A stretch of DNA of 40,311 nt, from contig CAJINV010000002.1 in the NCBI GenBank assembly GCA_905178155.1, positions 4,222,285 through 4,262,595 on the forward strand, in the 5' to 3' direction. The notes under the pieces were generated by a model that was not told where the DNA came from, searched no databases, and was given only the letters and a program-made list of their open reading frames with translations. A program made the position numbers and the translations under genes. This document shows positions 239 through 39,846 of this stretch, piece after piece (the first letter of the stretch is position 1; each line of letters begins with the position of its first letter). Origin of the DNA: Amoebophrya sp. A120 (Eukaryota > Protista > Dinoflagellata).

Positions 239-388
239 CATGACAAATTCTGGGAGTCCAAATAGCACTACAATCGTCCGTGCAAAAACTTGTCATGCAC
301 AGCATACACGTGTGCTGGTGTTTGTATTGCTGTTCACGCTTCTATACTTACAAATGAGGGGGAGGAGGTGGTGTGGTGCAGTCTCATA
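239..388. mobile_element. Introner family G, right half
   Basis: Ends ...GGTGCAGTCTCATA; resembles the right half of 15757-15992. Confidence 0.75.
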
Positions 389-3300
389 CGAGCCTACACG
401 GGAGCAGTACCGTCTCCAGGAACTCCGCCACCTCCACCACTGCGAGCTGCTGGAGCATGTTCGACACACACATGGCGCTATGCTTTGCAAAAGCATCGTA
501 CTAGTTAGTAGAAATCGCATTACAAATTCGGTCAGCATGACAAATGCAATTTGTCATGCTGTAGTTTTGCCTTGGGATGGAGATTTCGATTTGTAAATGC
601 ATGCTTGCGAAGATTACTACGAGTGCGATACTTTTGCACAGGATAGGCGCTGTGCTACTGCAAAAAGCCTAACGCCGCCAAGGTGTCCTATGACACTTCG
701 GAGAATTTGTCCTCCGCGGCGCGAACACTGTTTCTGCCCGACGTGACCAAAACCGACCATGGGTGGCCACATAATGCTATCAAATGCAAATATGTCTGGG
801 TCCTCTGGAAACTTGTAATGCTGCGTCGGGAAATAAAATAGTGAATGCTCTGTAATGCACAGCCAAGCATGAGAAATATCTGCGCTTCTTTGTGTTGCGT
901 TTTTCGCATGACAAACTGCGTTTTTGCATGACAGGCAAAAGGGAAAATAGAATAGAGACGGCACAGGCAGAAGTGGTTTTTGACCGGTCTAGTTTTACAC
1001 ACGCGCGATATTTTTAGTCTTTTACCTAGATTTATGTGCTATTTACTCTTTTCCTAGGGGCTTTCACTTCGTGACCATTACGATGGTCATGGGCATTATT
1101 TCCATCCTGGTTCTCGAATTTGTTGCAGCTTGGCCAAATTGTCATGCGATTTCTCAGTTTGGTCATGCTCTGCTTTGATCTCGTGGCACTTTTTACTTGG
1201 GCGTCGTGTTTGTCATGCTGGACGTACCAACCTCATTGTTCTCCTGGCTATTTGCATGTTGGTCCCTGGACTTGGACGTTGGCGCCACGATCGCAACTCC
1301 ATTTCCCAAACCGCTGCTTTCTTTCCTGCTAGAAATTCGAGATGCCACCTTTAGGATGGTTCGTTCGGTAGGTGGGACTGTGTCATAATTAGTTTCTTCA
1401 CGCCCTTTTTTACTTTTCTTTTCTGTTCCCTCGGTGCTAAGACACGAATCTTGCACAGTGCTAATTCTACTCAGATAACAACAGAACTCACATCGTAGCA
1501 CTCCCAGGAGTCTCGGTTGCTGTCTCTCGGTAGAAGTCGCGCAGTTCAATTTTCTGGCTTGGAGTTTACCGGGTACGCGGTCTGGCTTGGAGTTTACCGG
1601 GTAGACCGGCGCTTTTTGTGTCGGCCCGCCGAAGTTTCGCGCGCGGGTTTAGCAGTCTTCTTTCTCGCGAAAAACAAAAAGGTGAGTCTCCTGACCCTTC
1701 CGGTCGTCACCACTCCGCCCGCGTTCGTGCTCGCACGGCGCCACCACGAGGACCACCACGGTTAAAGTCCTGGTTTAGTCCCTGGCCCGGTCTGCTAATC
1801 CGGGTAAGTAGCAGCATCGTCGTGCTTCTTCGCTAAATCACTTACTGGCGCCTGACCGCAGCTCGGGGAGTAATTATATAGACGGTCGCCGCTTGTGGTG
1901 GTCAGAGGCGTTCGAGTCTAGTTAGTCCTTAGCTGCGCGCTACTCTTTCAGTTCGTGCGGGCTCCAGGTGCTGCGATCACCGGCAGAAGCTTAACAACAG
2001 CGAACATAAGGACGTTAGATTTTTGATTGCTCTACATTACAAGACCGGCACTTGTGTCGGCCCGCCGAAGTTTCGAGCGCGGGTTCAGCAGTCTTCTTTC
2101 TCGCGAAAAAGGTGAGTCTCCTGACCCTTTCGGTCGTCACCACTCCGCCAGTATTCGTGCTTGCGCGGTACCTCACGATGACGTCGATGATGACGGTTAA
2201 AAGTTTGCAGCCTTAATTTACAAAGGGACGCCCTGCTGCCCTTAGTTTCCCAACATGACAGGCAAAAGGGTCTCTTCTTGGACACGCATCACAAACTTTT
2301 TGGTCATGCCAGACGAGCATGACAAACTTGCATTTTTCCAGACCCAGACATTTTTACAATCCATAAATGCAGTGACCACCGAGCGCGTTACCGTGGACTC
2401 TTTGCTGACCCGGAAACTGGACCCAACCCTCATATCAAATGCAAAAATTTCTGGGTCTGAAAGGTTGGAACTTGTGATGCTAACTTTGGACTCCAAAAGA
2501 ATCTGTACTGCATGACCAGCAAGAGGAGTCTAGTTTGTGCTACGCGGGGAGGGCATTTGTCATGCAGCGGAGTAGGCATCAGGAAGCCCACCTCTAAAAA
2601 TCTGTGATGCTAGGTCGTGCATTACAGACATCCTGAGTCATGATGCAAAATATGCATGACGAACCCGGCAACATTGCAGACCCAGACACTTTTGCGTTTG
2701 ATACCTCAAGGCGGAGCACAATCTGCTGGCGCGGAGCACGATTATGTCCAATCAGTATCGGCAGGACAGCAATCCCCGGTATGTGTCCAAGTATCGGTCC
2801 TATGCGAAGAATATGCACTGCAAAAGTATCGTACTCGTATAGATGCATTACAAATTTCCTCAGCATGAGAAATAAAATTTGTAATGCTAATCTGCCTTGA
2901 GAACAAGGTTTGTAATGCAAGACTTGCATTAGCATTTATACGAGTGCGATACTTTTGCACAGGATAAAGAACTGGGTGCTCGCGGAATTGGGCGAAAGCT
3001 GCGAGCTATCAAATGCAAATATGTCTGTGGGTCTGGAAGGATACAACTTGTGATGCTACTCTTGGAATCTACATAAAATCTGTATTGCATGGACAGCAAA
3101 ACAAGAGGTCGAGGTGTAGTAATTTTCGGTACGCGGAGAGGGCGAGGGCGTTTCTCATGCGGTATGAGCATCAGAAAGCCCTCGAAAAATCTCTGATGCT
3201 CGGGCATGCATCACAGACCTCATGGGTAATGCAAAATCTGCATGACAAACTCCTGCTCCTGCATTCTTTCAGACCCAGATAGTTTTGCAATCCATACGAG

Positions 3301-6300
3301 CTCACCTGCGCGAAGAGCGGAAATCGGGTGTGCAACGCGAAGGAGCTTCTGAAGCTGACGTCGGTGGAGAAAGTCGACCTGGCCCTGGCTGAGGCTCTCG
3401 GCGAGAAGATCGAGGTCGGGAGTATGAACTGCAGAAGTATCGTACTCGTATAAATGCATTACAAATTTCTTCAGCGTGAGAAATAAAATTTGTAATGCTG
3501 ATTAAGGTTAAGAAAAAGATTTGTAATTATGCATGAGTGCAATACGAGCACGATACTTTTGCACAGGATAGGGAGCGATGGAAGCTTATCGCACGGCCTG
3601 CAAACCGGGTGCGCCGTATCAAATGCAAAAGTGTCTGGGTCTGGCAGAGTGCAAACTTGTCATGCAGCTTTTCCATGACCCGCGAGGTCTGGAATGCGGG
3701 ACCTAGCATCACAGACTCTGTGGGATCTCTACCATGCCCATCCTGCATGAGAAATCCCCTCCCAACTCGGTCGAAAGTGGACAGCTTTTGGCACTCATGC
3801 AACACAGATTTTTTGCATCATTCAGATTTAGCATGACAAGTGGCAACCTCCCAGGCCCAGACATGTTTGCAGTGCGTACGCCACCGCGGCGAACAATCCC
3901 GATCGAGGGTCGAACAACCACTCAAGCGCGCGCAACTACCCCGGCGTGCCGGCACTTTCTTGGCCCGGGACGTGCTCGTACTACACTTCGGCCGCCAATA
4001 ATGTGATCGGGAGACATACGCAATGTAAATTTCCTGTACATGATGTACAAAATGCATGACAAATTTCGCTACCTTGCAGAGTCCAACTTGTCATGCTGGA
4101 CTAGGATTGAAGGCAAGTTTTGTCATGCAGAGACTGCATTTGTACGGGAGATTTACTGGTGATAAGACACATCCGCACGGACGGCACGGTCCCCCTGGCA
4201 ACCGAAAACGTGGAATATGCATTGCAACAGTAACGTTAACGTACTAGTATAAATTGCATTACAAATAATTTTTTGCAAGAACAAAAGTGGGATTTGTAAT
4301 GCTGTTTTACCTTAGGAGGAAGATTTGTCATGCCTATCTGCAATTACTACGAGTACGAGTACGTTAGTACTTTTGCACAGCATATGGAAGTCACCGTCAC
4401 AACCTGCGATATTGCGGGCGCGGGCGATGGAGGTGTGGCCTCCCTGAAAGTGAAGCTGTTCGAGCGCACAGCTACCGGGAGCGGAACCGCCACCGAGCAC
4501 ATCCTGTCTTTTTCGCTCGTGAATGACAATGCGGCTTACACCCAAACGGCCACGGGCCTGGCCGGCTCGATCTCTCGCGTCACTGTTTACGTGGTCACGA
4601 CGTCAGTGAGCGACTTGTCCACCTGGGGAGTGTGCATCGAGAAGATTCACATCGACACACTGGGGCCCATCAACTTCGGAAGCCGCTTCTGGTTCAAAGG
4701 AGCGGTCCGAAATGAATTTGACGGCGTGCCGGAGTTGATGGTCACCGGGGGGACTGGCCCGGCCAACTGGCCCGCGGAGTACAAGCAGGCGTTCATTTAT
4801 GTGAATCCCAACTACGATCACGGCATGGTGTGCTCCGCGAAACCTGCCTACCCAAAGCACGACCTATGCAAGAAAAAAACTGTGTAAGAAGTCGTGTAAG
4901 TCTGTGATGCAGAAAATGCAGAACAGTTACACTTGTCATGCCAGACAACCACGAAGTCCTCTTTCCCTCTGTGTTATCCCTTACAAGAATATGCATGACA
5001 GGTTTTCTCTGTCATGGGGAGTAAATTTGTGATGCTGTCAGCCAAAGGAAGCTACACTAGTAGCTCAGTTTTATTTTTCTTTCATACGACCGGCCCATCT
5101 GCTACTGTGACCACTATGAGATTTTGGCCAACGCGGGGGAGGTATCCAGGAAAAAACACCCATCCCCATCCATCTTTTGCATGACAAACACTGCTTTTGA
5201 CGCATGTTTTGCATGACAAATTGGATGGGGATGGGTGTTTTTTTCTGGATAGGAGGAGGTAAAAGTGGGCGACGCGTTATCCAAAGAAAAAAGTTTTACA
5301 GTTACACACTAACTATTTGTAGTAACTTCAGCACGACAAACTTGTTGCTCTTCAGCTTCATTTCAGACAAAAGTTGCAATGCAGAAATTATAAGGGAAAG
5401 CATGTACAACTATGAGTATGAAACGATTCTCGCAAGAAGCGTTTCCGGCATGACAGAGGTTGCCTGCTGTCTTGCTAGTTTTACATCACAGTGCATAACT
5501 GTAACCTTTTTTGCTCTCCATGCGCGTTGGTTTCCCGCGGTTGGCCCGCGTTTCCTCAGTGGCAGATGGTCACTGCCGGCACGTATCAACTGCAACCATG
5601 TCATCTGGATCTGGAACTTCGTGATGCTAAAGTGTGCATGATGAAAAGCAAAAGACTTCCTTATGCTGCTGGAACGCATGACAAATTTGCAGAACGCTTT
5701 CTCATGATACGAACTCCGCATGGGAAGCTGCGTTTTTGTATGACGTGACGAGAGGCTGCCACTTCTGTTGGTCACACACGCAATACAGATTTCACAGGAA
5801 AAATGTAAGACCAGCATTACAAGTTCCAATTTTCCAGACCCAGACATTTTTGCATGTGATAGCACATATCAGACAGACGCAGAGGCGGGGACCTTATGAA
5901 CTGCAAAAGTATCCTCGTACTAGTATAAATTGCATTAGAAATTTCCGCAGCGCGAGAAATAAAATGTGTAATGCGGACTTGCCTTAAGAAAAAGATTTGC
6001 AATGCAAGACTTGCATTTATACGAGTAGAAGTGCGATACTTTTGCACACGATAGACCTACAGCGAGTACCTCACCGTGTTGAACGCGGCTAACCAAGTAT
6101 CCTGAGTAAAAACGTACCCACCCCATAGTCAAGTTGTTATTTTGGTAAATCTGCAACACAAATCTCCATGTTTTGGGAGTTGTGCATGGCAAGTCCAAGT
6201 TTCCATCTGTAGTGTAGTGCTGTTTAGGAAGGACAGCTTCAGCTGCATCACAGAGACGCCTGCTCATCCTGTTTACATCAGCATTACAAATCCCATAACA

Positions 6301-8512
6301 CGACTAAGTACGAATTCCCCTCTTGCGGATGTACATTAGTTACAGATTTTTCTGTATGCAAATCTGCATGGCAGGACGCTTTTAAATAGGATACCAAATA
6401 AAGGTTATAAATGCGGGACCACAGGTTGTATCAAATGCAAAAATGTCTGGGTCTGGAAGATTCTGAAACTTGTCATGCACGTTTTGCATGGGCCAGCACT
6501 ATGTCGGTGATGCATGCCCTAGCATCACAGACTTTTTGAGGGCTTCGCCGCGATACCTTTTCCGCATGACAAATGCCCTCGCCGCGTAGCCAAAATTGCA
6601 TCCCCTTTTTTGCTGGTCATGCAATACAAATTTTTTCAGAATCCAGAGACAGCATCACAAGTTTAGAATGTTCCAGACCCAGACATTTTTTCATTTGATA
6701 CGTTGCTAGCAGCATGTACGGCGTTCTCAAACGTTACATTCTGAACTGCTACGTGAACAATTTGTAATGCAAGAATGGCAAAAGTGCAAGGCGGAACCGG
6801 AAGATTGCGCCTTTTGCATTACAAGTTTTGCCGCGCAGATTATCATGCTATCTAGTGCTTCGTGGACTTGTCATGCGAAGCAGCTTGATCATGTAGATAT
6901 GTATTGCAATTGTGCAGCATGATGACAAACTCATGTAACAGTTGAGAGTGTAGTAACGTTTGAAAACGCCATAGCATGGGCGTTGCGTCCTTTTGGATCA
7001 AACCCTTTTCCAGTGGAAAGACGAAAGTTACCAGCTACCATCGGTTATCAAGCGAAAATTTGTCTGGGTCTATGCATGTTTGTCATGCTTGTCTGGCATG
7101 ACTCTTAAATCTGTCATGCACGTTAGAAGTACTCAAGAGGAAGAGCTCCGCTTTTCTGTCGTGCAGAAACTACGGAGCTTGTCATGCAGAATAGGCAACA
7201 CAACCTAGAAGCTCAGAAACTTGCCATGCTGAGCCAGCACTTGTGGCCTCCTGCTCATGATACGCCACCCAGCATCACAAGTTTCCAGACAACATCCAGG
7301 GACATTTGCAATGCATATCGCTCACTCAATTACGACGCGGACGAAGAAGAAATCCCAGCCGTTATCCTGAGGAAGAACGTCCCCACACCAGAGTCAAGAT
7401 GGGAAATCTGCTAGACAAATCAACCACTTTTCATTGCTTCGCATGACAAGTTTGCCCTCATAGTGTGATCCTTTTTCGCTAGTTCAGCAGCGTCACTGAT
7501 CTAGCGCATCATGCTGATTCTAGCATCACAAAGTCCAAAACACGACTAGAAAACGCTTCTCATGGGGGTCCGCGTGAGAAACTTTTTTGGTATGCAGATT
7601 TGCATCACAACTCTGGGGTGGCGACGTTTTTACTCAGCATAGCCGTGTCGTCCGACACTGCTTGGCAAGATGTGCTCTGTGCCGTTCACATGAAAGTGCG
7701 CATGGAGTATCCGTCGCAAACTTATTGCAAGGAAAAATCCCCCCTCCCCATCATATTGAAAACATGTCCTTCTCCTTCCAAAAATTTGTGATGCAGATTT
7801 GTGGCCACAAATCCTGTCTGTCTTCCCAGAAGGCAAATCCAGAGAGTCCGCCACGATATGCAGGCGGTTTGTAATGCTGCAAGGCCTACAGGGCATACGT
7901 CTGCCATGCCAGGCCCCTACACCAAAAGGCCCCCCCCTTAGGCTTGCAATCTGCGTGCAGTGCTCTCCTGCAAGACAAATGTGCCCGCGTCACAGATTTC
8001 AGCTTTGATATGCTGGGGAGGGTGGATTTTCATTTTGATAAAACTGGTATCACGGTGGGGGACACGGCCGAGTGTGCGGCAATATCCTGCGCAAAAAGTT
8101 TGTACTTACTCGTCGTCATCCACATTACAAATGTGCGTTGCTCGCCCTGAGCAAATTATTTGTCATGCGATTTGTACAACTAGTAGGTGCGATAGTTTTG
8201 CGAAGTGCATAAGTTTTGGGGAGCTGCAACTCGGCGTCCGGGGATGACTCTCTTTTCTACTGGTTCTCGGGGAGAACAGAAGGACCGAAGGAGCGTGCGG
8301 TAGATGCAAGCTTTGCAGCGCACACTGGGAGTGGAGGGGGGGCAACTTGGAGCACCTGGCTCCCTCTGACCAAGTATGAGCACCGTTTTGTGACCTCGGA
8401 CATCGTTTTGCTGAACCTGGGAGTGCGCGAAGACGGGCTCCAAATCGCGGCACTGAAACTCGAGTGCAGCCAAGGCAGCGCAGCCTGGGTGAAGGTGAGC
8501 GCTTGGCGCTGA
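389..8512 (+). CDS. Gene 1 (5'-partial, multi-exon): Cys-rich, probably extracellular protein with a PLAT/LH2-like domain; interrupted by 22 introners
   Basis: Removing each element plus one 5-bp repeat gives one ORF to TGA 8510-8512: SLHGSSTVSRN...HMALCYCKKP...GWPHN|AVTTERV...YAKNWVLAELGESCELTCAKSGNRVCNAKELL...ENVEVTVTTCDIAGAGDGG...WGVCIEKIHID...MVCSAKPAYPKHDRPICYCDH...AAWVKVSAWR*. Domain names are by motif resemblance only. Confidence 0.8.
479..645. mobile_element. Introner family B
   Basis: TIR TAT..TGCAAAAG / CTTTTGCACAGGATA; direct repeat (DR) ggcgc/ggcgc. Confidence 0.9.
778..2365. mobile_element. Introner family A carrying the 1.3-kb nested insertion
   Basis: TIR ..ATGTCTGGGTC / GACCCAGACAT..; DR aatgc/aatgc; frame joins HN|AVT. 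Confidence 0.85.
944..2253. mobile_element. 1310-bp non-coding element nested in introner 778-2365, with a 17-bp target duplication
   Basis: CATGACAGGCAAAAGGG at 927-943 and 2254-2270. Removing the insert restores a normal-length family-A introner. Internal direct repeat ~1617-1765 vs ~2054-2200; 28-bp-period tandem at 1553-1603. Confidence 0.85.
2433..2703. mobile_element. Introner family A
   Basis: TIR; DR cctca/cctca. Confidence 0.9.
2812..2966. mobile_element. Introner family B
   Basis: TIR; DR aagaa/aagaa. Confidence 0.9.
3007..3296. mobile_element. Introner family A
   Basis: TIR; DR cgagc/cgagc. Confidence 0.9.
3423..3570. mobile_element. Introner family B
   Basis: TIR; DR gggag/gggag. 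Confidence 0.9.
3617..3878. mobile_element. Introner family A
   Basis: TIR, ends GTA; DR cgccg/cgcca. Confidence 0.85.
4017..4164. mobile_element. Introner (singleton)
   Basis: TAC..GTAAATTTCCTGTACA / TGTACGGGAGATTTAC..ATA; DR agaca/agaca. Confidence 0.85.
4216..4384. mobile_element. Introner family B
   Basis: TIR; DR tggaa/tggaa. Confidence 0.9.
4865..5086. mobile_element. Introner family E
   Basis: TATGCAAGAAAAAAACTGTG start; DR cgacc/cgacc. Confidence 0.85.
5143..5251. mobile_element. Introner (singleton, 109 nt, near-perfect ~29-bp TIR)
   Basis: TATCCAGGAAAAAACACCCATCCCCATCC / GGATGGGGATGGGTGTTTTTTTCTGGATA; DR ggagg/ggagg. Confidence 0.9.
5278..5522. mobile_element. Introner family H
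   Basis: TIR TACAGTTA/TAACTGTA, ends ATG; DR cgcgt/cgcgt. Confidence 0.85.
5584..5861. mobile_element. Introner family A
   Basis: TIR; DR gcacg/gcaca. Confidence 0.85.
5895..6053. mobile_element. Introner family B
   Basis: TIR; DR gacct/gacct. Confidence 0.9.
6098..6393. mobile_element. Introner family I
   Basis: TATCCTGAGTAAAAACGT / GACGCTTTTAAATAGGATA; DR ccaag/ccaaa. Confidence 0.8.
6429..6700. mobile_element. Introner family A (reverse orientation relative to 11536)
   Basis: TIR; DR ggttg/cgttg. Confidence 0.9.
6717..6973. mobile_element. Introner family D
   Basis: TACGGCGTTCTCAAACGTTAC / GTAACGTTTGAAAACGCCATA; DR gcatg/gcatg. Confidence 0.9.
7046..7317. mobile_element. Introner family A
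   Basis: Degenerate TIR; DR tcggt/tcgct. Confidence 0.85.
7363..7641. mobile_element. Introner family I
   Basis: TIR; DR gccgt/gccgt. Confidence 0.85.
7723..8040. mobile_element. Introner family F
   Basis: AAAAATCCCCCTCCCC / GGGGAGGGTGGATTTT; DR aaact/aaact. Confidence 0.9.
8083..8211. mobile_element. Introner family B-like, degenerate
   Basis: TAT..ATA with weak TIR; DR lost (ggcaa/agttt), but removing element+5 nt keeps the frame. Confidence 0.7.
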
Positions 8513-10926: not shown

Positions 10927-13900
10927 ATGATGTCTTCAGCATCTCACGCTGCGCCGGTCGTGGAGCCCGTGCTGATCGACGGGAAAGTTCCGAAGTACAA
11001 GATTTCCGGCGAACAGCGAAAAAAGTTGCAGAATAAGGACCTCTTCACCTCGGACCAAGACTTATGCATTGCAAATATGTCTGGGACTGGGTCTGGAAAT
11101 CTGTGATGCTGAATTGAGCATGATTGAAGCGCTTGCAATGGCAGCCAGGCATGACAAGTTTAAAAGACGCCTGCGGATGCCTACCACGCATCACAAGTTG
11201 CGTTTTTGCATGACAAAGCAAGCTCCTCTTTTGCTGCTCATGCAACACAGATTTTCCAGGACTGCAAGACACGCATCACAAGTTCCACTGTTCCAGACCC
11301 AGACATTTTTGCATTTGACAAGACCGTCGACTTGCCAACGTCTGTTTCAACGTGGCCAATGAGACGCTGATCGAAACTTCCCCGAGTAAGTATTTTCCAT
11401 CTTCCAGCTCGTCTTCCACACCATCGGGTCGTGGGCCGCGAGGTTCTACTCGATCTAGTCACGACGAGCCAAAGAAGAACTTGGTTGTGAAAGTAAAACA
11501 CCCGACCGGCGGCGCCATCGCGCAGCATGACCGGCTATCAACTGCAAATATGTCTGGGTCTGGAAGAATGCAACTTGTGATGCTGCATTTGGATTCCAAA
11601 AAGATCTGTATTGCATGAGCAGCAAAGGGAATGCGATTGTTGCTACGCGGAGAGGGTATTTGGCATGCGGAATAGCCATGAAGATGCCCTCAGAACATCT
11701 GTGCTGCTAGGGCATGCATCACAGACATCATGGCTCATGCAAAACGTGCATCACAACTATCAGAACCTTCCAGACCCAGACATATTTGCAATGCATACCG
11801 ACGCACGGAGTTTCCGCGCCGGGGCGGGGAGATGCAGCTGGAGGCGGCTGGCATCCTGTCCGAGAACCCGCGAAACCAGTCGATCCACGAAACCCGACGC
11901 GGCCGAACGCGGACGGAAATGAAAATGGAGCTGAAGGCCGACATGGTGCCGGACGTCAAGTCCTACGATTTCGACCAGGATGGCGTCGTCGGTCCCCGCG
12001 ACTTACGCACTGCAAAAGCATCGCACTCGTATTCGTATGAATGCATGACAAACCTTGTTACATAGGGATTTCAGCAAGAGAAATTTCATTTTTCATGCTG
12101 CGCATCAAATTGAAATTTGTAATGCAATTTGTAGTACGCAGTAGTACAACGATGGCGATACTTTTGCAATGCATACGGCTACTTCATCGGTCGGTATTAT
12201 GGAAGCGTCAGGATTGAAATCGTCAAAGTTGAAATAGTTTGTGATGCATAAAATGGATGCCCCCCCAGTTTCCAAGTGGCGCATGACAAATTTGGGTAGC
12301 ACCTAAATCCAGTCTGTCATGCTGTTTGGGTAAGGGCGGCGCCTTTTGTCATGCTACTTTAGCAGCTCTATTTCTACACCTCAACAGGCTCACAATCTGC
12401 CTCCCTTGCGTCCTCTGCAACAGAGACAGTTTTTGCGTTGCATTTTATGCATGACAAATCATTTCAACTTTGTCGATTTCAATCCTGACGCTTCCATAGG
12501 TATTTTGACGTGGGGAAGAAGGGGTACCTGACCCAAGAGGAGCGGAAAAAGGCGGACTTCGAGGTGAACGAGAACAATTTCCTTATCAACTGCAAAAATG
12601 TCTGGGTCTGGAAGATTATTACATTTGTCATGCATGTCTGACATGACTCGAGAATCTGTGATGCAGGGGCGCGAAAAGCCTCTCCTATCTGTCATGCAAA
12701 AACGCAGCTTCTCATGCCATGCGGAAAACGCAACGCATAGATAGCAGCTGCAGCTCGAAAATTTTTCATGCTGGGCAGCTGCGTATTGCAGTCCGGCTAT
12801 CATCAACTTTTTGCATCACAAAATTCCAGACCCACACATTTTTACAGTTGATATTCCTGGACAAGTTCAAATTCGGGTTTGACGCGACGGGGGCCGCGAA
12901 CCCCACCATGATAACCACGCAGAAAGCGGGGAAGATCATCACCTATAACAACATGGATCAGCTAGCCGACAGCTACCCGCCAAGGTACGATGTGAACTCG
13001 AAACATTACAAGAAGCCGAAACACCGCTCGAAGTCGGAAATGCGCATGGACCGGGTAGCGGACGCACGCAACGGGAACAACGAACTGTACAACAAATATT
13101 TGGAGAAAAACCCGCCACGGGTATGGATGTGTCAGGATTGAAACCGACAAAGTTGAAATGATTTGTCATGCATAAAATGCATACAGTTGGAAGCCCAATT
13201 TTCAAGCGGCGCATGACAAATTTTCGGAGCGCCGGAATCCAATTTGTCATGCTGTTTGGGCGCCGAAGACTGCTTTTGTCATGCTCCTTCAGCAGCTCTA
13301 TCCCAAACCCTGAATAGGCTCACAATCTGCCTTACTTGCAATCCCGGCAAGCCAGGCGCTTCATGCCTTGCATTTTATGCATGGCAAATCATTTCAACTT
13401 TGACGATTTCAATCCTGACAGATCCATAATGGGTCGTGGAAAAGTACACATCCACCACCTGTCTGGACGACGATGAATCGCGGAAGTCGCAGTATGAATT
13501 GCAAAAGTATCGTACTCGTATAAATGCATTACAAATTTCCTAAGCATGAGAAATAAAATTTGTAATGCGGATTTACATTAGGAGAAAGATTTGTAAATGC
13601 ATGACTGCAATTGCTACGAGTACGATACTTTTGTACAGGATACGCAGTCTCTTCCACCTATCCAGCACATTCGGGAGCGCGCGCAAGCGGACCATGAGTT
13701 GGCAAGGGTTCGGGCAGGATTGTATCAAACTTAAAAAATGTTAACGCTCACGGTCGTCTTCGCAGCAGCTAAGGCTTACAGTCACGCATGACACAGTTTG
13801 TTTTGCTACCATGCATGCTATGCAATACAGCTGTAGTGTGCTTCTGCATGCGTTATTCTCGTTGCATGCCAAATTTCGTTTAGCGTTAACAGTTCTCCTC

Positions 13901-19044: not shown

Positions 19045-21057
19045 GTCTTCTTGTTTGATGCTGCAGCCACTGCTGTACTTTTCTTGCCTGAGCTTGTGTT
19101 TTAAAGTGAAGAACGTAAGAGCGAGATTCGAGAAGTAGAGGCGTCAAGTAGAAGAAAAAGATCTGTCATGCTGCCTCGGTACGTTTTTTACAAAGAAGTG
19201 TAGTTCATGTTGTAATAAAAAATCAATAAAATGTGTCTTGTTGCATGCAGCAGCAAGAAGTACTAGACCACGAGAATTTTTACGCCTGCATACCACACGG
19301 AAAACTAGTCATGGATGATGGAAAGCACCACCCTTGGTAAAAAAAATCTTCGGGCGAGAATTATCGAGGCGATTTTTGTCATGGAGAAGCTGCAACGTGA
19401 CTGTAGTTTGCGTTGCACGTCGTTGAGATTGGTCTGAATGTACTTCAAGCAAAGGAAATACGACGATACAACAGACACTAAACGCTCAAAGAATTATTTG
19501 AAGTCCTCTTCTAGATCGTGTTTGTCCAAAGCATACACTATGTTTGAAGCTGTACTAATGTTTCTAGTAGTGCGAGTGCTACTGCTACTTCGCTTGTTAC
19601 CACCTTGTTTTCATTGCTTTTTGAATTGTAGTTTTCACAGAAGATTATTCACATGAACCTGTCCACGAAAGTTTGTTTGTTTGTTTGTTTGAGTATCTAC
19701 TAGCTTGTCTTTGCATTTTTTTATGTAATTTGTTATGCTAAATTTGTCTTTGAGTTGTTTCACAAACTAACACTGTAGCTTGCCTTGTTTTGTTTCGCAG
19801 ATATTTTTTGATGCTCTGTATCATCACCTTGTTTTTATTGACTTTGCAACCAGTTTGACTTTGAATTTGAAATATTGACTTGCGCACACGACTCCTCGCT
19901 TTGAAGACGAGTTTACAACTGTAAAATACGTGTTATGACACCGACTTGATTTTTGATTCAATTTGACAACTTATAACTTCGGACTTTTCTTAAATGAAAA
20001 TGACAGAATCTCGATCCATTTTTACAACAACAAACTTCGCGATAGTTGTCAGTTTTTGTTGTCGCAAGTGGTCGTTGATTTGTTGGCAAAACTTTCGCGC
20101 TGTCGCGTTGTATTATTTAGCGCTGTCCTGTACAGAAGATATTGAAAAGAACATGGAAGATCAAACACGATCACGACACTTGTTGCATTAGCGCAGCCTG
20201 ACGACAGCAGCTTTTGCAACTAGGAATTGAAAGATGAAATTTCCGAAACAACTACGTTTGCTTTTGCTATTCAGCATCAACTGTACATAATAATCGGCGA
20301 AAGCCACCACGACCTAGCAGATTCATTCTGCGTGCGGCCTCTTTGAAGCTGCAATAACTTCAGGGACTAGAATGTGTTGGTAAGAAAAAGACCACATATT
20401 GATACTGGAAGTCGCGCCTGGCCGAGCAGAAAAGTTACGGTTACCAAGAACCCCTTACAAATAAAATTGCTCGCATCATTTTCATTTCTACCCCAGGACC
20501 ACACTGGCGGGGCCCGCTCGGAGACGGTTTTTTTTGCTCTTTGCCTTCTTTTTCCGGTTCATTTTCACGCAAATTGCATTTTAATAATTTTGCTTCCTCG
20601 CATGTTGACCCCCAAACCAGGCCTCGTAGAAGTTCACACATGTCTTCACCACGTGCCAACAAGCACTACCTTAACCTTTTATTCCTACGAACGGAGGAGC
20701 GGCTACTTGGACCTCCTCGCTTCATCTACTTTGCGACAGCAGTGACTCGCGACTTTTTTGTAGCTTTTCACGAAAATGGATGAACCCATATTTTCACTTT
20801 TCATTTTGCGGAGTAAGGCCACAGGACAGCACCACAACAGTTGGCATGGATGGGCATACTCACTCGGGGGGGGCGAATGTTAGTTTCTCTTAAGTATCCA
20901 AGAATATTAGCTGCGGTCAACATCCCTGTCGTTGTCCTCCTGCTCACCTCCTCTTGTAGCTCGATAAGTTTTTGTCGTAGAGCTGCAGAACTCCCTGACC
21001 CTGGCTGTAGAAAAAATAAGCGAAAGCATGTATGAGCTCATGTCTAATTTTTCTGCC

Positions 21058-24000: not shown

Positions 24001-27000
24001 TCAGATGCATAAATATGTTGTCTTCAGTGCCTGGGTCGTTTGGAAAGAACTTGTGATGCAAGCGAGGGAATAACAATAAGAATGGACACACTCTAGTACT
24101 TTAATGCAGCGCTGCCGAGAATAAATATGACAACAAGCACAAGGCTCGTCTCCGTGCTGGTTCTTGCAACTACCTTCCAGACCCAGACACAGTAGATGAT
24201 TGCATTTCATAAACCTCGGACGAAATTTCGGACTTGGGGGGCGGCGTGCGTGTCACTCTACTCTGCGGGCATTCCTTTCACTCCATGTGCCTGTTGCGGT
24301 GGCTGGACCAAACCTGCCCGGTGTGTATGCATTGCAAATATGTCTGGGTCTGGAAACTTGTAATGCTGAGTGGCGTAGCCGTAGCAAAGCATGGGGAACC
24401 CATAAAGTGATGGCTCAGCATGACAAGCTTCTGAGCTCCTTCTAGGTGTTGCCTATTCTGCACGACAAACTGCGTCGCGCCTGCATCACAGAAAGATGGG
24501 GCTTTTGAATAACGTGCATGACAGACTTGAGAGGCTTGCTAGCCGAGCAAGACAAATATCGCTTTCTTCCAGGCCCAGGCATATTTGCATTCGATAGTGT
24601 GCCGCTTCCAACAATATCCCGCACCCATGTCTGTCCAACACTTCACCAGCACGGGCTGCGAGATATGGAATGCAAATATGTCTGGGTCTGGAACAAAGCA
24701 ACTTGTCATGCTAAATCTGAATCAGGTAAAAATCTGTGTTGCATCATTACCAAAAGCTCTCCACTTTTGACCTCCTAATCGAGAGGCAGTTTCTCATGCA
24801 GGATAGGCATGATAGAACAGTCACAGAGTCTGCCATGCTGTGTCGTACATACCAGACCTCATGGGTCATGGAAAACCTGCGTGACAAATCTGGCACTCTT
24901 CCAGACCCAGACTACATTTTTGCAGTTGATACGAGATCGAGTTGTGCGAATTCTACTGCAACACCGCGACACCCGACCCGGAAAACTTCTACCTGATAAC
25001 GCCGCTTCGTATGTGCCTCATTTGCGGTTTCACTGGCTGTCTCCCCCACGCGCTGTTTCATTTCGAAACCAACCCGGGGCACTGCTACGCGCTGGACCAC
25101 GCCACGCAAAAGGTCTTATCCTGTGCAAAAGTATCGTACTCGTATTGCAATCATGCATATACAAATCCTTTTGTTAACGTAAATCCGCATTGCAAATTAT
25201 TTTCTTTTCTCATGCTGAGCAAATTTTTTGTCATGCGATTTATACGAGTGCGATGCTTTTGGGTTTCATAAGTCTTTGACTACAGCAACAACGAGTTCGC
25301 GCATGATTTTCTTCTGGACCATGACGCTGGCGCCGTGTGTGAGGAGGCTCCACCTGTGGAGGACAGTGAGGTCCTCGTACCAGCGTTCGGGAAAATGGAA
25401 AACAGCCGACACAGGAGAGTGGAACAGCAGCAGCAGCAAAGCAGCTCGACTCTGATGAATAAAGAGGACCTAGCACCAGGGAAGAAGATGAAAGGTTTGA
25501 AGAGCAAGCACGCAATATGGGACTGTCAGGATCGAAATCGACAAAGTTGAAATATTTTCTGATGTATAAACTGCAATGCATGAAGTGCACCTCTTGTAGG
25601 GATGGCAAGTGAGGCCGACTGTCAGCCTAATTGGGGTCTGCGATAGAGCTGCTAAAGTAGCATGACAAGAGACGCCTTCTGTCCCTAAACAGCATCACAA
25701 AGTGGATTTAGACGGTGCCGAAATTTGTCATGCGGCGCTCGGAAATTTGGCTTCCAACTGGTTGTATCGATTTCATGCATTAAGTACAAGTTGTTTCAAC
25801 TTTGTCGATTTCAATTCTGACACTCCCATACGCCAAGAAGAAGCAAGAAAACGCGGTGATAGAGTTTAACCAGGTGCTCACACGGCAGATGGAGGAGCAA
25901 CGGCTGTATTTCGAGGATTTACTGGATATCCTGTGCAAAAGTATCGCACTCGTATAAATGCAAGTCTTGCATTACAAATCCTTTTCTTAAGGAAAATCCG
26001 CATTACAAATTTTATTTCTCATGCTGAGGGAATTTGTAATGCATTTATACGAGTGCGATGCTTTTGCAATTCATACTGGACAAAAAGGAGCAAGACGTGC
26101 AGTCGCTGAAGCGGGATTGCCTGCACAGGTTTATCAAAGTGAAAAATCCCCCCTCCCGCTCCCCATATCAAGACGAAAGTTCTGATCATGCTGGATTTGC
26201 GTACACAAATGACGTTGTCTTGCAATATTATAGGACTGCAGCCAGATCCTCAGACTGTTTAGGAGTGTAAGCGTCTAGCTGTTTAGCATGAGAGACGCCC
26301 GCCCTGTAGGCCCAACATCGCATGAGAAACCGCATCCACAATGCAGCGCACACAACAATGCTTGCCTTCTTGCACGACAGAGCTGATTTGTGACCACAAA
26401 TCTGCATCACAAATTTTCGGAGTGATGCCTTTTTGATATGGGGAGGGGGGATTTTTCGTCACAATAAGGTTAGAAGCGTTGTCTGTTGAGTTCGACACGG
26501 TTTTGCAACAGGAAGCGAGAAAAGCGGCGGAGTTGCAGCAAGCGAAAGCCAATCTGGAAACCTTACGGAGGAAACTCGAGGGCACGAAGAAGAAGAAACA
26601 AGACTGCGAGGCCGAAATTGAGAAGTACCAACATCTTCATGATGATCCCAACCACGGTACTACTGCTCCTCTTGGTGACGCATTAGCATCTTCATCATCT
26701 TCCGGGGGCGCATGGAATAGAAGTCAACCGGTACTATCAACAAGTAGAACTACCGCACGACCCTCGCCTGATGTGCAAGCACTGGCGATGCCGGCCTCGG
26801 TCCCTCGTCTGCTCACCAGTTGCTCTTCGTCTCCGGCAACATCAGCACCGTCCTCCTCGGTCAGCATATCAAAGTTGTGCACAACTCCCCCTGCCACTCG
26901 TTTGTCATGCAAAATTATACCAAATCCAAGCAGATGCAGATCCACCCTTTGCCCGTTGGCGCTGCTTGCATGACCAGTACTGGCAGCAGGTGCCCAAGTA

Positions 27001-27630
27001 GCACTACAAGTTATTATCCTGTGCAGGTAGTTTGTCATGCAAAACCTGCATGATATTCTTGCTGACGCTTGTATAGGTGTTCACGCCAACATGTTACAAA
27101 TAAAGAGAGATGGGGACGAGACGAGTCGTGCACTCGGATACAACAAGCCATTAACCGCGAAGGAGAAGAAAAACCAGGAAAAGGCATTGATCAAACAGCT
27201 GAAACAGGAATATTAAAAGGAAAAACTCCCCCTCCCCACATTGTCATTGAAAAGGTATGTTTCCGAAAATTTGCGTTGCTGATTTGTGGGCACAAATCAC
27301 ATTTGTCTTGCAAGAAGACAAGGGCAGAAGCTTCCGTCCCACTATGGAAGCGATTTGCCATGCTCTTGGGCCTAAAGGGCAGCCATTTGCAATGCTGAAC
27401 AACTAGACCGAAGCGCCGCCATTTAGGCTGGGAATCTGGCCGCAGTGCCTTCCTGCAATACAGAGCTGATTTGTGTACACAAATCCAGCGCCAGAAGTTC
27501 CGTTTTGATATGGAGAGGGGGGATTTTTGCCTTTGATAAGGAGGTAGAAGAGTTGAAAATGAATGTGCGCATGAAAGCAAAATTCAAAAAAGAGCAACTA
27601 GAAAACTCTGGGGTGCTGGGAACCATGTAA
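21058..27630 (+). CDS. BRAP: Gene 3: BRCA1-associated protein (BRAP2/IMP/ETP1-type) E3 ligase with BRAP2, RING-H2, ZnF-UBP and coiled-coil regions; 14 introners
   Basis: Spliced product contains IDYWSGNPAVALVEGVL; LCSNVPNVLTPSEFC; RING-H2 CMVCLE...[27 protein letters not shown]; ZnF-UBP MCLICGFTGC..HALFHFE..GHCYALDHATQKVFDY; and EFNQVLTRQMEEQRLYFE. Stop TAA 27628-27630. The start at 21058 needs a 1-nt correction in a T9 run. Confidence 0.9.
21331..21537. mobile_element. Introner, E/H-like
   Basis: TATCG..GAAAAAA / TTTTTTC..CGATA; DR atggc/atggc. Confidence 0.85.
21748..21960. mobile_element. Introner family G
   Basis: TIR; DR agccc/aaccc. Confidence 0.9.
21999..22234. mobile_element. Introner family D
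   Basis: TIR; DR cgagt/cgagt. Confidence 0.9.
22314..22571. mobile_element. Introner family A
   Basis: TIR; DR atgca/atgca. Confidence 0.9.
23035..23246. mobile_element. Introner family E
   Basis: TIR; DR ttcgc/ttcgc. Confidence 0.9.
23999..24211. mobile_element. Introner family A, degenerate
   Basis: DR aacct/aacct; splits the RING domain. Confidence 0.85.
24326..24596. mobile_element. Introner family A (reverse orientation relative to 17368)
   Basis: DR gtgtg/gtgtg; splits the last RING Cys codon (CPVC|RF). Confidence 0.92.
24664..24931. mobile_element. Introner family A (reverse orientation relative to 3617)
   Basis: TIR; DR cgaga/cgaga. Confidence 0.9.
25117..25270. mobile_element. 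Introner family B (reverse orientation)
   Basis: DR ggtct/agtct; joins TQKV|FDY. Confidence 0.9.
25516..25830. mobile_element. Introner family C (reverse orientation)
   Basis: TIR; DR cgcaa/cgcca. Confidence 0.9.
25927..26075. mobile_element. Introner family B (reverse orientation)
   Basis: TIR; DR ctgga/ctgga. Confidence 0.9.
26132..26466. mobile_element. Introner family F (reverse orientation)
   Basis: TIR; DR aggtt/aggtt. Confidence 0.9.
26867..27140. mobile_element. Introner family G
   Basis: TIR; DR cagca/caaca. Confidence 0.85.
27211..27538. mobile_element. Introner family F
   Basis: TIR; DR aggaa/aggag. Confidence 0.9.
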
Positions 27631-35350: not shown

Positions 35351-35424
35351 CCCCCATGCTCCCCGCCCTCTTCGCGGTCTTCGCTTTCAAAGCTGTGAAA
35401 CCGGGGAGACAGGCTTTCGGGAGT

Positions 35425-35757: not shown

Positions 35758-35764
35758 TTGCGGC

Positions 35765-36066: not shown

Positions 36067-36532
36067 GGCGGTGAGCGATTTCGCAAATCGCAACAGCTTG
36101 AAAAAGTTTGAAAAGTGTGAAAAACTTTTCGGCTTGGGCGATTTTCCCCCCTGCTGCAAAATTTTAACTGCCCCTGCTCAGCAATAGGAGTTATAAAGTT
36201 AAAGGCAACAGGAGCAGGGGCTTGTTATTTACATAATTTCGATCCGCTGGCACCCAACTGCAACTGAGACACCACGACGCACGCACTACTTTTAGTTTTA
36301 CTTCGTAGCTTTCTGTATGAGATTGAATATCTGAGAAAACAAAGACCACATCTCTCGTTTCCTGTACGATAGCAGCAGTCTGATAAGATAAAGATTCAGA
36401 CTATCCTGTTTTTCTATAATTTTGGCTCCCGCGGTGGCTCCTACTACAGTTACAAAGACAATCTATCGTCTTCCAGTTACTTCCTGCTGTTCCCTAGAAG
36501 AAGGAGGCACAATCAGAAGCAAAAAAATCAAA

Positions 36533-39500
36533 ATGTTCATGTTGGGTACAAAAAAACCGTCTTTTCTTGCCGGCGTGGTGCCTGTAGTTGCGCTTGTGGT
36601 CGGCGCGCTTCTGCTATCAAATGCAAAAATGTCTGGGTCTGGAAGAATGCAAGTTTGTCATGCTTGTCTGGCATGACTCGAGAATCTGTGTTGCATAGGC
36701 ACGAAAAGGCCCTCTTGCCTGTCATGCAAAAACGCAGTTTGCCATGAAGAATACGTAAGACATGGGAGCCAAAAAAATTGTCATGCATAGCTGCGTATTG
36801 CAGTACGTCTCCCATTCACTTTTAGCATTACAAGTTTCCAGACCCAGACATTTTTGCAATCCATATCTGCAATTCCACGCGACTTTTGCGGATGCGGCCG
36901 CGCAAAAACGTCGTAGCAGTCGCGCACGTATCAAATCTAAAAATGTCTGGGTCTGGAAGAATGCAACTTGTGATGCTATTTTTGGAAGCCAAAAAAATCT
37001 GTATTGCATGAGCAGCAAGAGGCGCCCAGTTTTTGCTCCGCGGAGAAGGGATTTCTCATGCGGGATAGGCATCAAGATGCCCGCAAAAAATTTGTGATGC
37101 TGGTGCATACATCAGAGACATCACGGGTCATGCAAAATTTGCATGACAAACCTTGCAATCTTCCAGACCCAGACATTTTTGGAGTTGATAGCACGAAGCG
37201 GTCCTGCTCGTTCCGGACGACGCCTGGAAGAAGAACAGATTCCTGGTGCCGCTCCACGCACATCAATCAGCGAATCGTGCGCCGTGCGCTCCTGCCGCCC
37301 ACAAGGTACCTCATTCATTCTCAATCTAAGCAACGCACTCCAGACATCGCATTCTAGGCATCACAAATAGGACTAGGTCGCGCAGCACCAGCGCGAACCT
37401 CGTGAGGGCCGGAATGGGCTAACCACCTCTGTGGTCCCATTTTTGTACAAAGAATTCCGACAACCATCGGAATTTGCCCGTGACCGATGCCCAAGCGGAC
37501 GGTCAGCGAGAGCAGGTGGGGAGGGGCCTAACCTCCCGCGACTGCCACGCGCGCGCACGTTAAAGTCACGCACCGATATGGCGAAGCTGATGACGCTGGT
37601 CGCTAATGCAGGCACGTCCTGGGCGACCGGAGCGCGGGTCGTACGGCCCAAATCTGAACGAAAGTTCAACGAGGCACGCCATTCCGTGTTGCCGTCCCAT
37701 ACCGGCAGGCACCGCCTGTTCCGCTGCTTCAGCCGGAACCCTCGCTGGATGATGCACCTCTGTGCGCACTCCGGCGGGCTAGTAAGGATCTAGGATGTGA
37801 GGCTGTGAACGGGGTGCGCTTTGCATGTTTTGATCTGCTTATGCTGACGCACGCTGCCACCGCACGGTGGCGCGGACGTCGCGGCGCGGTCCCTGCTGTG
37901 CGCCTCGCTGCTGTATCTAGTAGTACGCAAGACGCTGCGAAGCAGCGCTCGCAGATACGGTTTTACTTATACAGAGCCGTAGTTCCACCACGGTGAAGGG
38001 TGTGACCTTTTGAGAACATACGAAGTAAAGCTGGCAGCCGTCGAGGGGCGCCAGCGCTCTGGGGATTTGGGAAGAAGTTTGCGTTTGCGCCACCGCGATA
38101 TAGCAAATTCTACCCAAATCACATCATGGATCAGGTACCAACAGGGCGGAAGAGCAGATTCCTGGTGCCGCTCCACGTACATCAATCAGCGCGCCTCCCC
38201 GTCTGGAGACAGGTGAACTTCTATCCAATGCAAATAAATATCAATATCTGGGTCGGGAGGATGAATGCAAACTTGTGATGCGCATATTATATTAGTCCTC
38301 ATCCACCATGGACACTAAAAGTTGCCCACTTGTTGTCAACACTGAAAGAGGAAATTTGTAATCCGGATTAGGCATTCGCACCATTGCGAAACCTTCTAAA
38401 AATTTGTGATGTTAATAGGGCTTGCACTATGGCACAGGTTTTGGGTCATGCAAAAACAGCATGACAGACATCTGCACTCGTGCAGACCCAGAGGACATAA
38501 TATTTGCAATGGTGCATAATTTCACGAGCGGGACTCGCTGGAAATCCGGCGGTCATTTACCGGCGATGAACCAATGGTGGTGCCTTCCACTCAATGGAAA
38601 GACTGGACGGTAGAAGACCTGTATAGGCACGTGGAGGAGAGTTTAATCCGCGAGGGAAGAAAATTGCCCTGCGGAAAGGTGGACCTGGTGGTAGACCATT
38701 ACCAGAGCCGGGCTGATAAAGTGGCTGGCCGCGTTGTCGGAAATGTTGTTTTATCAAATGCAAATATGCCTGGGGCTGGAAGATTGGGCAAGTTTGTAGT
38801 GCGCAATTGTATATGAATATGTTGTATGTGAGGACCCGCGTACGCGTTGCCTGTAATGCATTCTCCAGTGATGTAACACCTTCCGCAGAGGCTTTGTCAT
38901 GCCTATCCTGCATCTGAAACGCCCAGCAGGTATTGGCAGAGGCTAAATCTGTTCTAACGCCACCCTGACAGGAGTCAAAGGTCACTGCGATACGATACGG
39001 GTGGTAAAAATCTAAGCCCCTTTTGCTGCTCCTGCAATACAGGCTTTTGTAGCAACAGAGAAATTTACCATGACAAAGCCCATTCTTTCCAGCAGAAAGA
39101 CTCAGTCATGGTTGCAATTGATATACATTGGATCGCCGTCAGACAGGGACTTGGAACCGCGGCGCGCGGCGCTTTATCCTGAGCAAAACCGTCCCCGCCC
39201 CAGAGTTATAAGCAAAGCGGATTTTATGCAATTACAGGTAGGAGCACGTGTAGGTTCAGTGTGCATCTCTATGTTGACTGCCATTTCTTCTACGTGCTAG
39301 TCGTCTTTTGGCACCTGTCCTATAATGCTGTAAAAACAATAAGAAAATGGCTTTCTGATGCGGCTGTCCTTGCTGACCTGCAGGCACTAACTTGTCATGC
39401 GTGATTCCCAAATCTTCATTTTGTGAACTTGTATTGCAGACGAGTTCCCAAATTGTAATTGACTCTGGGTTGGAGGCGACGTGTTTACATAGGATACGCT

Positions 39501-39725
39501 TGTCGAGAGTGCTGCCGCGCGCTGCTGGAGGAGTAGGAGGTGAGGCAGCAGCTGCTCACGTGTTTAGCGTGGTGGTCCACGGAAACGGTAACACGCCCTT
39601 CCCCAATGAATTTCAGCTCCGAAGCGCGGCGGCGCTTTATTTAAACGACAGGTTCGAGCACCCGCGAGTGCGAGACGAACGCGACCGCATCGAGTGCACG
39701 TATGGGCCTGTGAATGCGTGGAACG
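36533..39725 (+). CDS. Gene 4 (3'-partial): signal-peptide protein leading into a DUF285/BspA-like surface-repeat region
   Basis: Hydrophobic N-terminus MFMLGTKKPSFLAGVVPVVALVVGALLQFHATFADA. The frame is maintained across 5 introners and one putative GT-AG intron to FPNEFQLRSAAALYLND...IECTYGPVNAWN, resembling the YGxIxxWDVS lead-in of DUF285 repeats. Confidence 0.6.
36615..36865. mobile_element. Introner family A
   Basis: TIR; DR tctgc/tctgc. Confidence 0.9.
36929..37190. mobile_element. Introner family A
   Basis: TIR; DR gcacg/gcacg. Confidence 0.9.
37306..38134 (+). other. Putative 829-nt GT-AG intron bounded by an AGGTACC direct repeat
   Basis: CAAG|GTACC...TCAG|GTACC; joins RPQ-G-TNRAEEQIP in frame. 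Confidence 0.5.
38222..38518. mobile_element. Introner family A, degenerate
   Basis: DR acttc/atttc; frame preserved. Confidence 0.8.
38752..39123. mobile_element. Introner family A, degenerate
   Basis: TATCAAATGCAA / TTGCAATTGATA; DR decayed (tgttt/tacat); frame preserved. Confidence 0.75.
39175..39496. mobile_element. Introner family I
   Basis: TIR; DR cgctt/cgctt. Confidence 0.85.
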
Positions 39726-39846
39726 TATCCGAGTTGTGCACACGACCCCCATTCCCTTTGTCCGTCTTCATTTGCAGTCGTCATAAACCAAAATTCAAAT
39801 TGTAGCGAGTTCAGTCCTAGCTTTGTCGTTGTACTAGCTTGCATGA
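39726..39846. mobile_element. Introner family G, left part (not closed in the window)
   Basis: TATCCGAGTTGTGCAC..CCCCC start. Confidence 0.65.

What the first reader, a model, noticed from the sequence alone, without database searches (positions are those of the whole stretch)
239..39846. Introner system: 63 TIR transposon-like elements acting as non-canonical introns in four genes
Seen: the elements are bounded by TAY...RTA inverted repeats (two right ends deviate, ATG and ACA) with a 5-bp flanking direct repeat. Deleting element+5 nt restores the frame at all 61 complete junctions, including inside invariant BRAP2 RING and ZnF-UBP motifs. The genes therefore look functional, and the elements must be removed precisely. 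Established: introners with inverted and short direct repeats and non-canonical splice sites are described in Amoebophrya, so the class is not wholly new. To my knowledge the excision machinery is unresolved. Inference: these are MITE-like elements removed at the RNA level; developmental DNA excision is the alternative.
Basis: partly seen in the sequence, partly recalled or inferred. Interest (0 to 1): 0.9.

Follow-up and report, generated by a model that had tools for sequence, protein, structure and literature searches.

The report
Transposon introns cut by fixed ruler
Four genes of the marine parasite Amoebophrya are interrupted by 62 small transposon-like inserts, a class already described in this strain, and where transcript assemblies fix the cut the inserts are missing at one spacing from their paired ends (1 base before, 4 after), which likely is the rule the still unidentified splicing machinery follows.

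Summary
There are 62 complete TAY…RTA elements, not 61. The 5-nt flanking repeat is perfect in 39 of 62 and effectively absent in 3. Two genes also need three ordinary GT-AG introns removed. The window is Amoebophrya sp. A120 (100% protein matches), and the elements fit its published introners (Farhat 2021), so the class is known. Transcript-like assemblies span 51 of 62 junctions, all consistent with loss of element + 5 nt; a DNA-like run keeps the elements. What I did not find in the papers read is the register. At 12 junctions with imperfect or no repeat, the only common solution is a cut 1 nt before TAT and 4 nt after ATA, and two repeat-less elements fix it exactly. The paper calls these borders variable or unknown. 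In one family the register follows gene direction in both element orientations, which favours RNA-level removal. It parallels Euglena's N3-CAG…CTG-N5 code. The machinery is unresolved: altered spliceosome about 0.55, endonuclease/ligase about 0.35. A retroelement-like insert nests inside introners. The scan earlier noted similar hairpin introns in other dinoflagellate genomes.

The parts
389..8512 (+). Gene 1 (5' part lies upstream of the window; 660 open codons here; no family found for the one exon scanned). 21 elements: 479-645, 778-2365, 2433-2703, 2812-2966, 3007-3296, 3423-3570, 3617-3878, 4017-4164, 4216-4384, 4865-5086, 5143-5251, 5278-5522, 5584-5861, 5895-6053, 6098-6393, 6429-6700, 6717-6973, 7046-7317, 7363-7641, 7723-8040, 8083-8211
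   Evidence: 21 of 21 junctions spanned by transcript-like contigs
10927..19340 (+). Gene 2 (1048 aa, no Pfam hit). 22 elements: 11063-11320, 11536-11797, 12004-12175, 12198-12498, 12584-12853, 13122-13428, 13493-13642, 13723-13908, 14368-14545, 14810-15023, 15119-15274, 15364-15510, 15552-15711, 15757-15992, 16052-16283, 16354-16626, 16972-17143, 17368-17625, 17680-17832, 18071-18215, 18701-18962, 19014-19292
   Evidence: 22 of 22 spanned; identical to P0004 only with the 1/4 register
21227..27630 (+). Gene 3, BRAP2-like RING + zf-UBP protein (966 aa). 14 elements: 21331-21537, 21748-21960, 21999-22234, 22314-22571, 23035-23246, 23999-24211, 24326-24596, 24664-24931, 25117-25270, 25516-25830, 25927-26075, 26132-26466, 26867-27140, 27211-27538
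   Evidence: 8 of 14 spanned; identical to P0001
36533..39724 (+). Gene 4 (partial, 278 codons). 5 elements: 36615-36865, 36929-37190, 38222-38518, 38752-39123, 39175-39496
   Evidence: no reads laid; 278 of 278 residues equal to public model P0007
8083..8211 (+). Element without a direct repeat; removed as 8082-8215, that is 1 nt before TAT to 4 nt after ATA
   Evidence: joint 8081>8216, ambiguity 0, in 4 of 4 runs
19014..19292 (+). Element with 0 of 5 repeat matches; removed as 19013-19296
   Evidence: pieces restart at 19297 in X4 and X6; P0004 allows only this register
778..2365 (+). Element carrying a nested insert; removed whole (1588+5 nt)
   Evidence: joint 772>2366 in 4 of 4 runs
944..2253 (+). 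Nested retroelement-like insert with a 17-bp target duplication (927-943 = 2254-2270); a second copy ends at 238
4865..5086 (+). Element retained in contigs of sample S3, absent from those of S2; joint second-weakest predicted end duplex of 62
239..388 (+). Right part of an element whose left part is displaced by a nested insert; the transcript contig resumes at 389 from an exon outside the window
39726..39846 (+). Left part of an element, right end not found; public model P0007 stops just before it
13970..14166 (+). Canonical GT-AG intron in gene 2
14613..14801 (+). Canonical GT-AG intron in gene 2, followed by a 7-nt exon
37306..38134 (+). Canonical GT-AG intron in gene 4

Best explanation
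These are the non-coding, inverted-repeat introner elements of Amoebophrya A120; they are absent from transcript-like assemblies together with 5 flanking bases, cut 1 base before TAT and 4 bases after ATA wherever the cut can be placed, and they are likely removed from pre-mRNA by an altered major spliceosome predicted to find its sites from the paired ends rather than from GT-AG. Steps: (1) inferred: a transposase acting in trans inserted TAY..RTA elements and made 5-bp target duplications; (2) shown: members of a family lie in both orientations, and the ends read N-TAY...RTA-NNNN either way; (3) predicted: the two ends pair in the RNA; (4) shown on contigs: removal takes 1+4 = 5 extra bases, equal to the duplication length, so a fresh insertion would be seamless, and later decay of the repeat does not move the cut; (5) inferred: U2/U5/U6 chemistry, with the stem standing in for U1/U2AF site definition and U+2, A+3 as the remaining sequence signal. 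Odds: RNA-level removal about 0.93; a fixed register genome-wide about 0.8; spliceosome as the catalyst about 0.55.
For: 22 of 22 contig intervals match the element+5 model, covering 51 of 62 junctions. 15 joints are listed directly, each in 4 of 4 runs (6 more not shown). Of 34 boundaries examined 12 restrict the cut; all 34 allow 4 kept repeat bases and no other value fits all. P0004 equals the model only at that register. The family 12198/13122/25516 has both orientations and both exclude the mirror register. DNA-like run X1 has unbroken contigs across five elements at depth 40-47, like flanking DNA. Keeping any one element truncates the frame, 62 of 62. All 61 folded elements have at least 10 predicted end-to-end pairs, and TAT:ATA pairs with P>0.5 in 40 of 61. 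T+2 and A+3 in 62 of 62, as in the 3 canonical donors. The paper reports 83 of 89 spliceosomal proteins, U2/U4/U5/U6 present and U1 not detected, and T at +2 in all 9 A120 and all 9 A25 predominant non-canonical ends. A review describes spliceosomal removal of MITE-derived non-canonical introns in Fritillaria.
Against: No enrichment of G+1 (17 of 62, p=0.62) or terminal AG (4 of 62, p=0.68), which known spliceosomes need (the requirement is my own knowledge). T+2/A+3 is partly built into my search and is equally explained as a transposase signal, since it is mirrored at the other end. No invariant branch adenosine: A-7 is G in one element and A-5 is G in another, and both are removed. Selection on RNA pairing is not shown: G-U against A-C mismatches 58 vs 49 overall (p=0.44) and 45 vs 27 from position 8 on (p=0.044, one of several tests); sense fold more stable in 28 of 61; no within-element covariation at positions 4-7. 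The weakest predicted duplex (7046-7317) is still skipped in all four runs. X4-X7 are contigs whose RNA status is a guess, from 2 samples and 1 study; they and the public gene models may not be independent. Only 2 junctions fix the register exactly.
Confidence: 0.55

Rival explanations
1. Same RNA-level removal and same register, but done by a non-spliceosomal endonuclease plus ligase (or a separate novel RNP) that measures from the terminal stem, as suspected for Euglena nonconventional introns.
For: No constraint at +1, -1 or -2. Fixed unequal spacers around a paired triplet, like Euglena's 3-nt and 5-nt spacers around CAG/CTG, where changing the donor-side spacer abolished the spliced product. 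Euglena introns leave as circles without lariats (review). An 11-nt exon between two elements is kept.
Against: T+2 is shared by the A120 and A25 end lists although their repeat motifs differ (TAT vs TTA), and by canonical donors. A nearly full spliceosome is present and U1 was not detected, which suggests the spliceosome itself changed. I did not look for a candidate enzyme; no genome was held.
Confidence: 0.35
2. The elements are cut out of the DNA during development (IES-like), and transcripts come from cleaned genes.
For: Transposon-like ends. Low-level empty sites are not excluded: the joint table of X1 was swamped by repeats (2903 rows not shown) and life stages are unknown.
Against: X1 contigs run unbroken through elements at flanking depth (X1 may be the assembly's own source). 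The unequal register follows gene direction in both orientations of one family. One element is retained in an otherwise spliced contig path. No germline/soma nuclear split is known to me in this group (own knowledge).
Confidence: 0.04
3. The skips are reverse-transcriptase template switches across hairpins at short direct repeats, an artefact of cDNA.
For: Hairpin plus direct repeat is the classic substrate (own knowledge); all evidence here is from assembled short-read contigs.
Against: Two elements with no usable repeat are skipped in the same register. Retention of any element truncates the frame, and the spliced proteins align across junctions with A25 and metagenome relatives.
Confidence: 0.03

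Closest known systems
Introner elements / non-canonical introns of Amoebophrya sp. A120 (Farhat et al. 2021, PMC7789003)
   Same: Same strain; inverted repeat starting TAT + 7 variable nt + at least 3 A; 5-bp direct repeat; repeated families; lengths near 240 nt; no coding capacity; absent from RNA.
   Different: The Fig. 3 legend calls splice sites variable relative to the hairpin and the border unknown; here the informative junctions give one register and show that the repeat is dispensable. The Fig. S23 legend and Table S4 already hint at it. I could not see the figures themselves.
Euglenid nonconventional introns (PMC12501133, PMC11282704)
   Same: Non-GT-AG ends defined by a paired triplet set back from the cuts by fixed unequal spacers; frequent slidable repeats; likely MITE origin; machinery unknown.
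   Different: Motif CAG/CTG with 3- and 5-nt spacers there, TAT/ATA with 1 and 4 here; unrelated lineage; circular excised RNA reported there, untested here.
Fritillaria borealis non-canonical introns (Henriet 2019, seen only through the review PMC11282704)
   Same: TIR and TSD bearing MITE-derived introns.
   Different: Preferred AG-AC/AG-AT ends and reported spliceosomal removal there; no terminal dinucleotide preference here.
IS3EU / GingerRoot DNA transposons (PMC10045372, PMC12730594)
   Same: TA..TA termini (TAYGG..CCRTA in rust fungi); integrase-like DDE enzyme. An A120 introner family with TIRs and Copia/Gypsy-like ORFs is reported in PMC12130899.
   Different: Usually 6-bp duplications there; 5 bp here (0 of 62 with 6 bp). 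No transposase found, so this is a lead only.

Membership tests
Amoebophrya A120 introner elements | Intron supported by RNA, with non-GT-AG ends | tested here: met
   51 of 62 junctions spanned by transcript-like contigs (RNA status is a guess, supported by zero depth in silent stretches); 1 of 62 reads GT-AG
Amoebophrya A120 introner elements | Inverted repeat joining both ends, TAT + 7 nt + AAA | tested here: met
   TAT 58 of 62; A at element positions 11-13 in 51, 52 and 54 of 62; motif
Amoebophrya A120 introner elements | 3-5 nt direct repeat at the borders | tested here: met
   39 of 62 perfect, 57 of 62 with at most one mismatch; 3 lack it
Amoebophrya A120 introner elements | Repeated families | tested here: met
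   45 of 61 fall in 8 clusters of 2-15 members, best identity 88%
Amoebophrya A120 introner elements | Host is strain A120 | tested here: met
   three exons match proteins named A120 at 100%
IS3EU/GingerRoot transposons | TA..TA termini | tested here: met
   62 of 62 left, 60 of 62 right; partly built into the search
IS3EU/GingerRoot transposons | Usually 6-bp target duplication | tested here: not met
   0 of 62 in the window; 0 of 243 in fetched loci, where 169 have 5 bp
IS3EU/GingerRoot transposons | Cognate DDE transposase | tested here: inconclusive
   none among 108 of 167 long ORFs scanned; no whole genome held
Euglenid nonconventional introns | CAG/CTG motif with 3- and 5-nt spacers | tested here: not met
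   TAT/ATA with 1 and 4; works alike, is not a member
Euglenid nonconventional introns | Excised as full-length circles | not testable with these tools
   no raw reads hold the locus
Major (U2-type) spliceosomal introns | GT/GC-AG ends | tested here: not met
   1 of 62; G+1 and AG at background
Major (U2-type) spliceosomal introns | Lariat with branch adenosine, snRNP dependence | not testable with these tools
   needs lariat sequencing or inhibition
Programmed DNA elimination (IES-like) | Empty sites in somatic DNA | tested here: inconclusive
   one DNA-like run keeps the elements; rare empty sites and other stages not excluded

The most novel reading that the evidence does not exclude
Amoebophrya A120 runs a second, non-spliceosomal splicing system with a minimal code N-TAT...ATA-NNNN. 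It measures both cuts from an RNA stem with spacers that sum to the transposon's 5-bp duplication, it evolved independently of the Euglena N3-CAG...CTG-N5 code, and it is permissive enough that a target-specific retroelement has specialised in hiding inside these introns.
Probability: 0.3. Interest if true: 0.88.

Novelty: already known. Interest (0 to 1): 0.45.

Why it matters
The elements and their removal from RNA are published, but how tens of thousands of them are spliced is open. A fixed 1/4 register turns 'variable borders' into a rule that can be checked genome-wide with existing reads and tested with reporters. It predicts exactly where lariat branch points or circle junctions should map, which would separate an altered spliceosome from a new splicing enzyme. 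It also explains why insertion is harmless: the spacers sum to the target duplication.

Tried and rejected
No whole genome is held, so no genome-wide register test and no transposase or ligase search. No RNA holder was on record as RNA in the run search. The first lay at 90% likeness was swamped by other element copies, so its joint table was useless and only its contig pieces were used. Gene 4 and six junctions of gene 3 were not spanned. Frame restoration as proof of +5 was rejected. The end-similarity scan was too noisy and its output was cut, so the list was finished by hand; two right ends were mis-entered and corrected, and the two gene 2 canonical introns were each off by one at the donor with the same summed length (corrected from then on). 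Strand-asymmetry and covariation tests for RNA pairing were inconclusive. Pfam scan of 108 of 167 long ORFs: no transposase, integrase or RT. Rfam and ARAGORN on the window: nothing. IS3EU membership not filed (5-bp, not 6-bp, duplication). No earlier notes on this genome.

Full report
Observation. Repeat scans show many dispersed inverted-repeat elements. After hand curation I count 62 complete TAY..RTA elements in four + strand genes (21, 22, 14, 5), two incomplete ones at 239-388 and 39726-~39846, and a decayed copy near 28667 outside the genes. A strict scan finds 33 with a perfect 5-nt repeat against 0 in 20 of 20 shuffles. The 5-nt repeat is perfect in 39 of 62, within one mismatch in 57, and effectively absent in 3. 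No element has a 4- or 6-nt repeat in the same position. Removing element+5 opens frames of 660, 1048, 966 and 278 codons, but genes 2 and 4 also need three GT-AG introns removed, and +2 or +8 leave long frames too. Keeping any single element truncates the frame, 62 of 62.

Identity. Single exons of genes 3, 2 and 4 match proteins named Amoebophrya sp. A120 at 100%, with A25 relatives for genes 3 and 2. The spliced gene 3 product equals P0001 and carries RING and zf-UBP domains; the relative P0003 has a BRAP2 hit just under the curated cut-off. Farhat et al. describe A120 introners with inverted repeats starting TAT + 7 nt + AAA and 3-5 nt direct repeats, 29,850 copies, and show a 5-bp example (legend). 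The class is therefore known, in this strain.

Transcript evidence. No listed holder was on record as RNA. X4-X7 are contigs guessed to be RNA (2 samples, 1 study). They behave as RNA: zero depth at 1233-2165 in all four, zero at 9828-10491 in X4 and X6, and lengths that require loss of the canonical introns. In gene 1, 15 joints are listed in 4 of 4 runs (6 more not shown); 14 skip exactly element+5, and one spans two elements with a short exon between them. Using contig coordinates, 22 of 22 intervals match the model, covering 21 of 21, 22 of 22, 8 of 14 and 0 of 5 junctions. Many of these are sums over several junctions. The public models agree at the rest but may rest on the same reads. 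DNA-like run X1 has unbroken contigs across five elements at the depth of flanking DNA; it may be the source of the assembly, and rare empty sites are not excluded. Element 4865-5086 is retained in X6 and X7 contigs.

The register. A perfect repeat hides the cut, but imperfect ones reveal it. Of 34 boundaries examined, 12 restrict it: four exclude keeping all 5 left-repeat bases, three need at least 4, three give looser lower limits, and two repeat-less elements (8083-8211, 19014-19292) give exactly 4. P0004 equals the model only at that value. So the removed piece is N-TAY...RTA-NNNN. Families occur in both orientations, and in the 12198/13122/25516 family both orientations exclude the mirror register, so polarity follows the gene. 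All four genes are on one strand, so this needs a genome-wide check. The 1588-nt element with a nested insert is removed exactly, so internal length and content do not matter much. Farhat's Fig. 3 legend calls the sites variable and the border unknown, though Table S4 (T at +2 in all 9 predominant A120 ends) and the Fig. S23 legend point the same way. In 21 of 58 A120 rows of the 2025 introner dataset that I saw, duplications are listed as 2-5 nt or not determined and the superfamily as unknown. I found no statement of a fixed register or of lariats in searches; figures, subscription papers and unread supplements could hold one.

Mechanism. Shown: removal with 5 extra bases at one register where testable, independent of the repeat. 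Predicted: a terminal stem in all 61 folded elements, with TAT:ATA paired in 40. Not shown: selection on RNA pairing. For an altered spliceosome: T+2 and A+3 as in the three canonical donors, T+2 also in the A25 list with a different repeat motif (my inference), a nearly complete spliceosome with U1 undetected, and the Fritillaria precedent. Against: G+1 and AG at background, no invariant branch A, and TA being equally a transposase signal. For an endonuclease/ligase: the close parallel with Euglena's spacer code and its circular products. I put these at 0.55 and 0.35. DNA excision and cDNA artefact are unlikely for the reasons given under rivals.

Origin. TA..TA ends recall IS3EU/GingerRoot, but those usually make 6-bp duplications. 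An A120 family with TIRs and Copia/Gypsy-like frames is reported, so an integrase-type enzyme is a reasonable lead. One metagenome assembly holds the same families: 169 of 243 distinct elements found without a repeat filter have a perfect 5-bp repeat and none has 4, 6 or 7 (145 loci held, those over 2 kb scanned). I did not establish whether it is a different genome. No transposase appeared among 108 of 167 long frames.

Papers seen. PMC7789003: abstract and outline, passages, section 4 part 3, section 10, supplement passages and Table S4 rows, no figures. PMC11282704: passages and section 6. PMC12130899: passages, supplement passages (files 13-14 not searched), 21 of 58 dataset rows. PMC12730594, PMC10045372, PMC12005148, PMC11453091, PMC12501133: passages. 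Henriet 2019: not read, known through the review. PMC12005148 notes canonical introns and U1 in another Amoebophrya, so the system is limited to part of the genus.

Verdict. Real, functional and already described as a class. The fixed register and the nested insert are useful additions that make the open question about the machinery directly testable. Interest 0.45.

Noticed in passing
window 944-2253 and 1-238; L006 ~3190-4130 (also in L007); L040 ~3420-3760 (also in L039): A repeat inserted inside introners. Four distinct copies share the same right end directly before a C[A/G]TGACA motif. The three complete copies differ at the left end and have target duplications of 17, 21 and 13 bp (the last two read by eye). 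This fits a target-specific non-LTR or SINE-like element using introners as a safe site; no RT frame was found, so the class is inferred. No literature search was made for it.
   Followed up: partly
all elements: A subterminal motif GCAT[G/C/T]ACA or its complement occurs 155 times in 14,154 nt of elements against 2 in 14,362 nt outside; candidate transposase binding site and the target of the nested insert.
   Followed up: partly
62 junctions: With the 1/4 register, 31 of 62 elements fall between codons (phase 0; p=0.005 against one third). Unexplained.
   Followed up: no
window 4865-5086: Retained in contigs of sample S3 but not S2; possible stage-dependent or inefficient removal.
   Followed up: partly
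window 6705-6715 and 14802-14808: Micro-exons of 11 and 7 nt between introns.
   Followed up: partly
window 29118-33075, 34672-35342, 35468-36069, 40016-40311: Tandem arrays of 93, 18, 17, 7-29 and 97 bp units; L017 shares 35427-36195-like sequence, so part belongs to a dispersed repeat.
   Followed up: no
window 28667-~28870: Decayed introner-like copy outside the four genes, with internal short repeats and no matching right end.
   Followed up: no
window 37230-37270 and 38150-38190: Short duplicated coding segment in gene 4 on either side of the canonical intron.
   Followed up: no
L058, L013, L008: In the metagenome loci, elements of the same family lie between or beside frames of conserved genes (RNA polymerase II Rpb1, an SNF2 helicase, a DNA ligase).
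   Followed up: no
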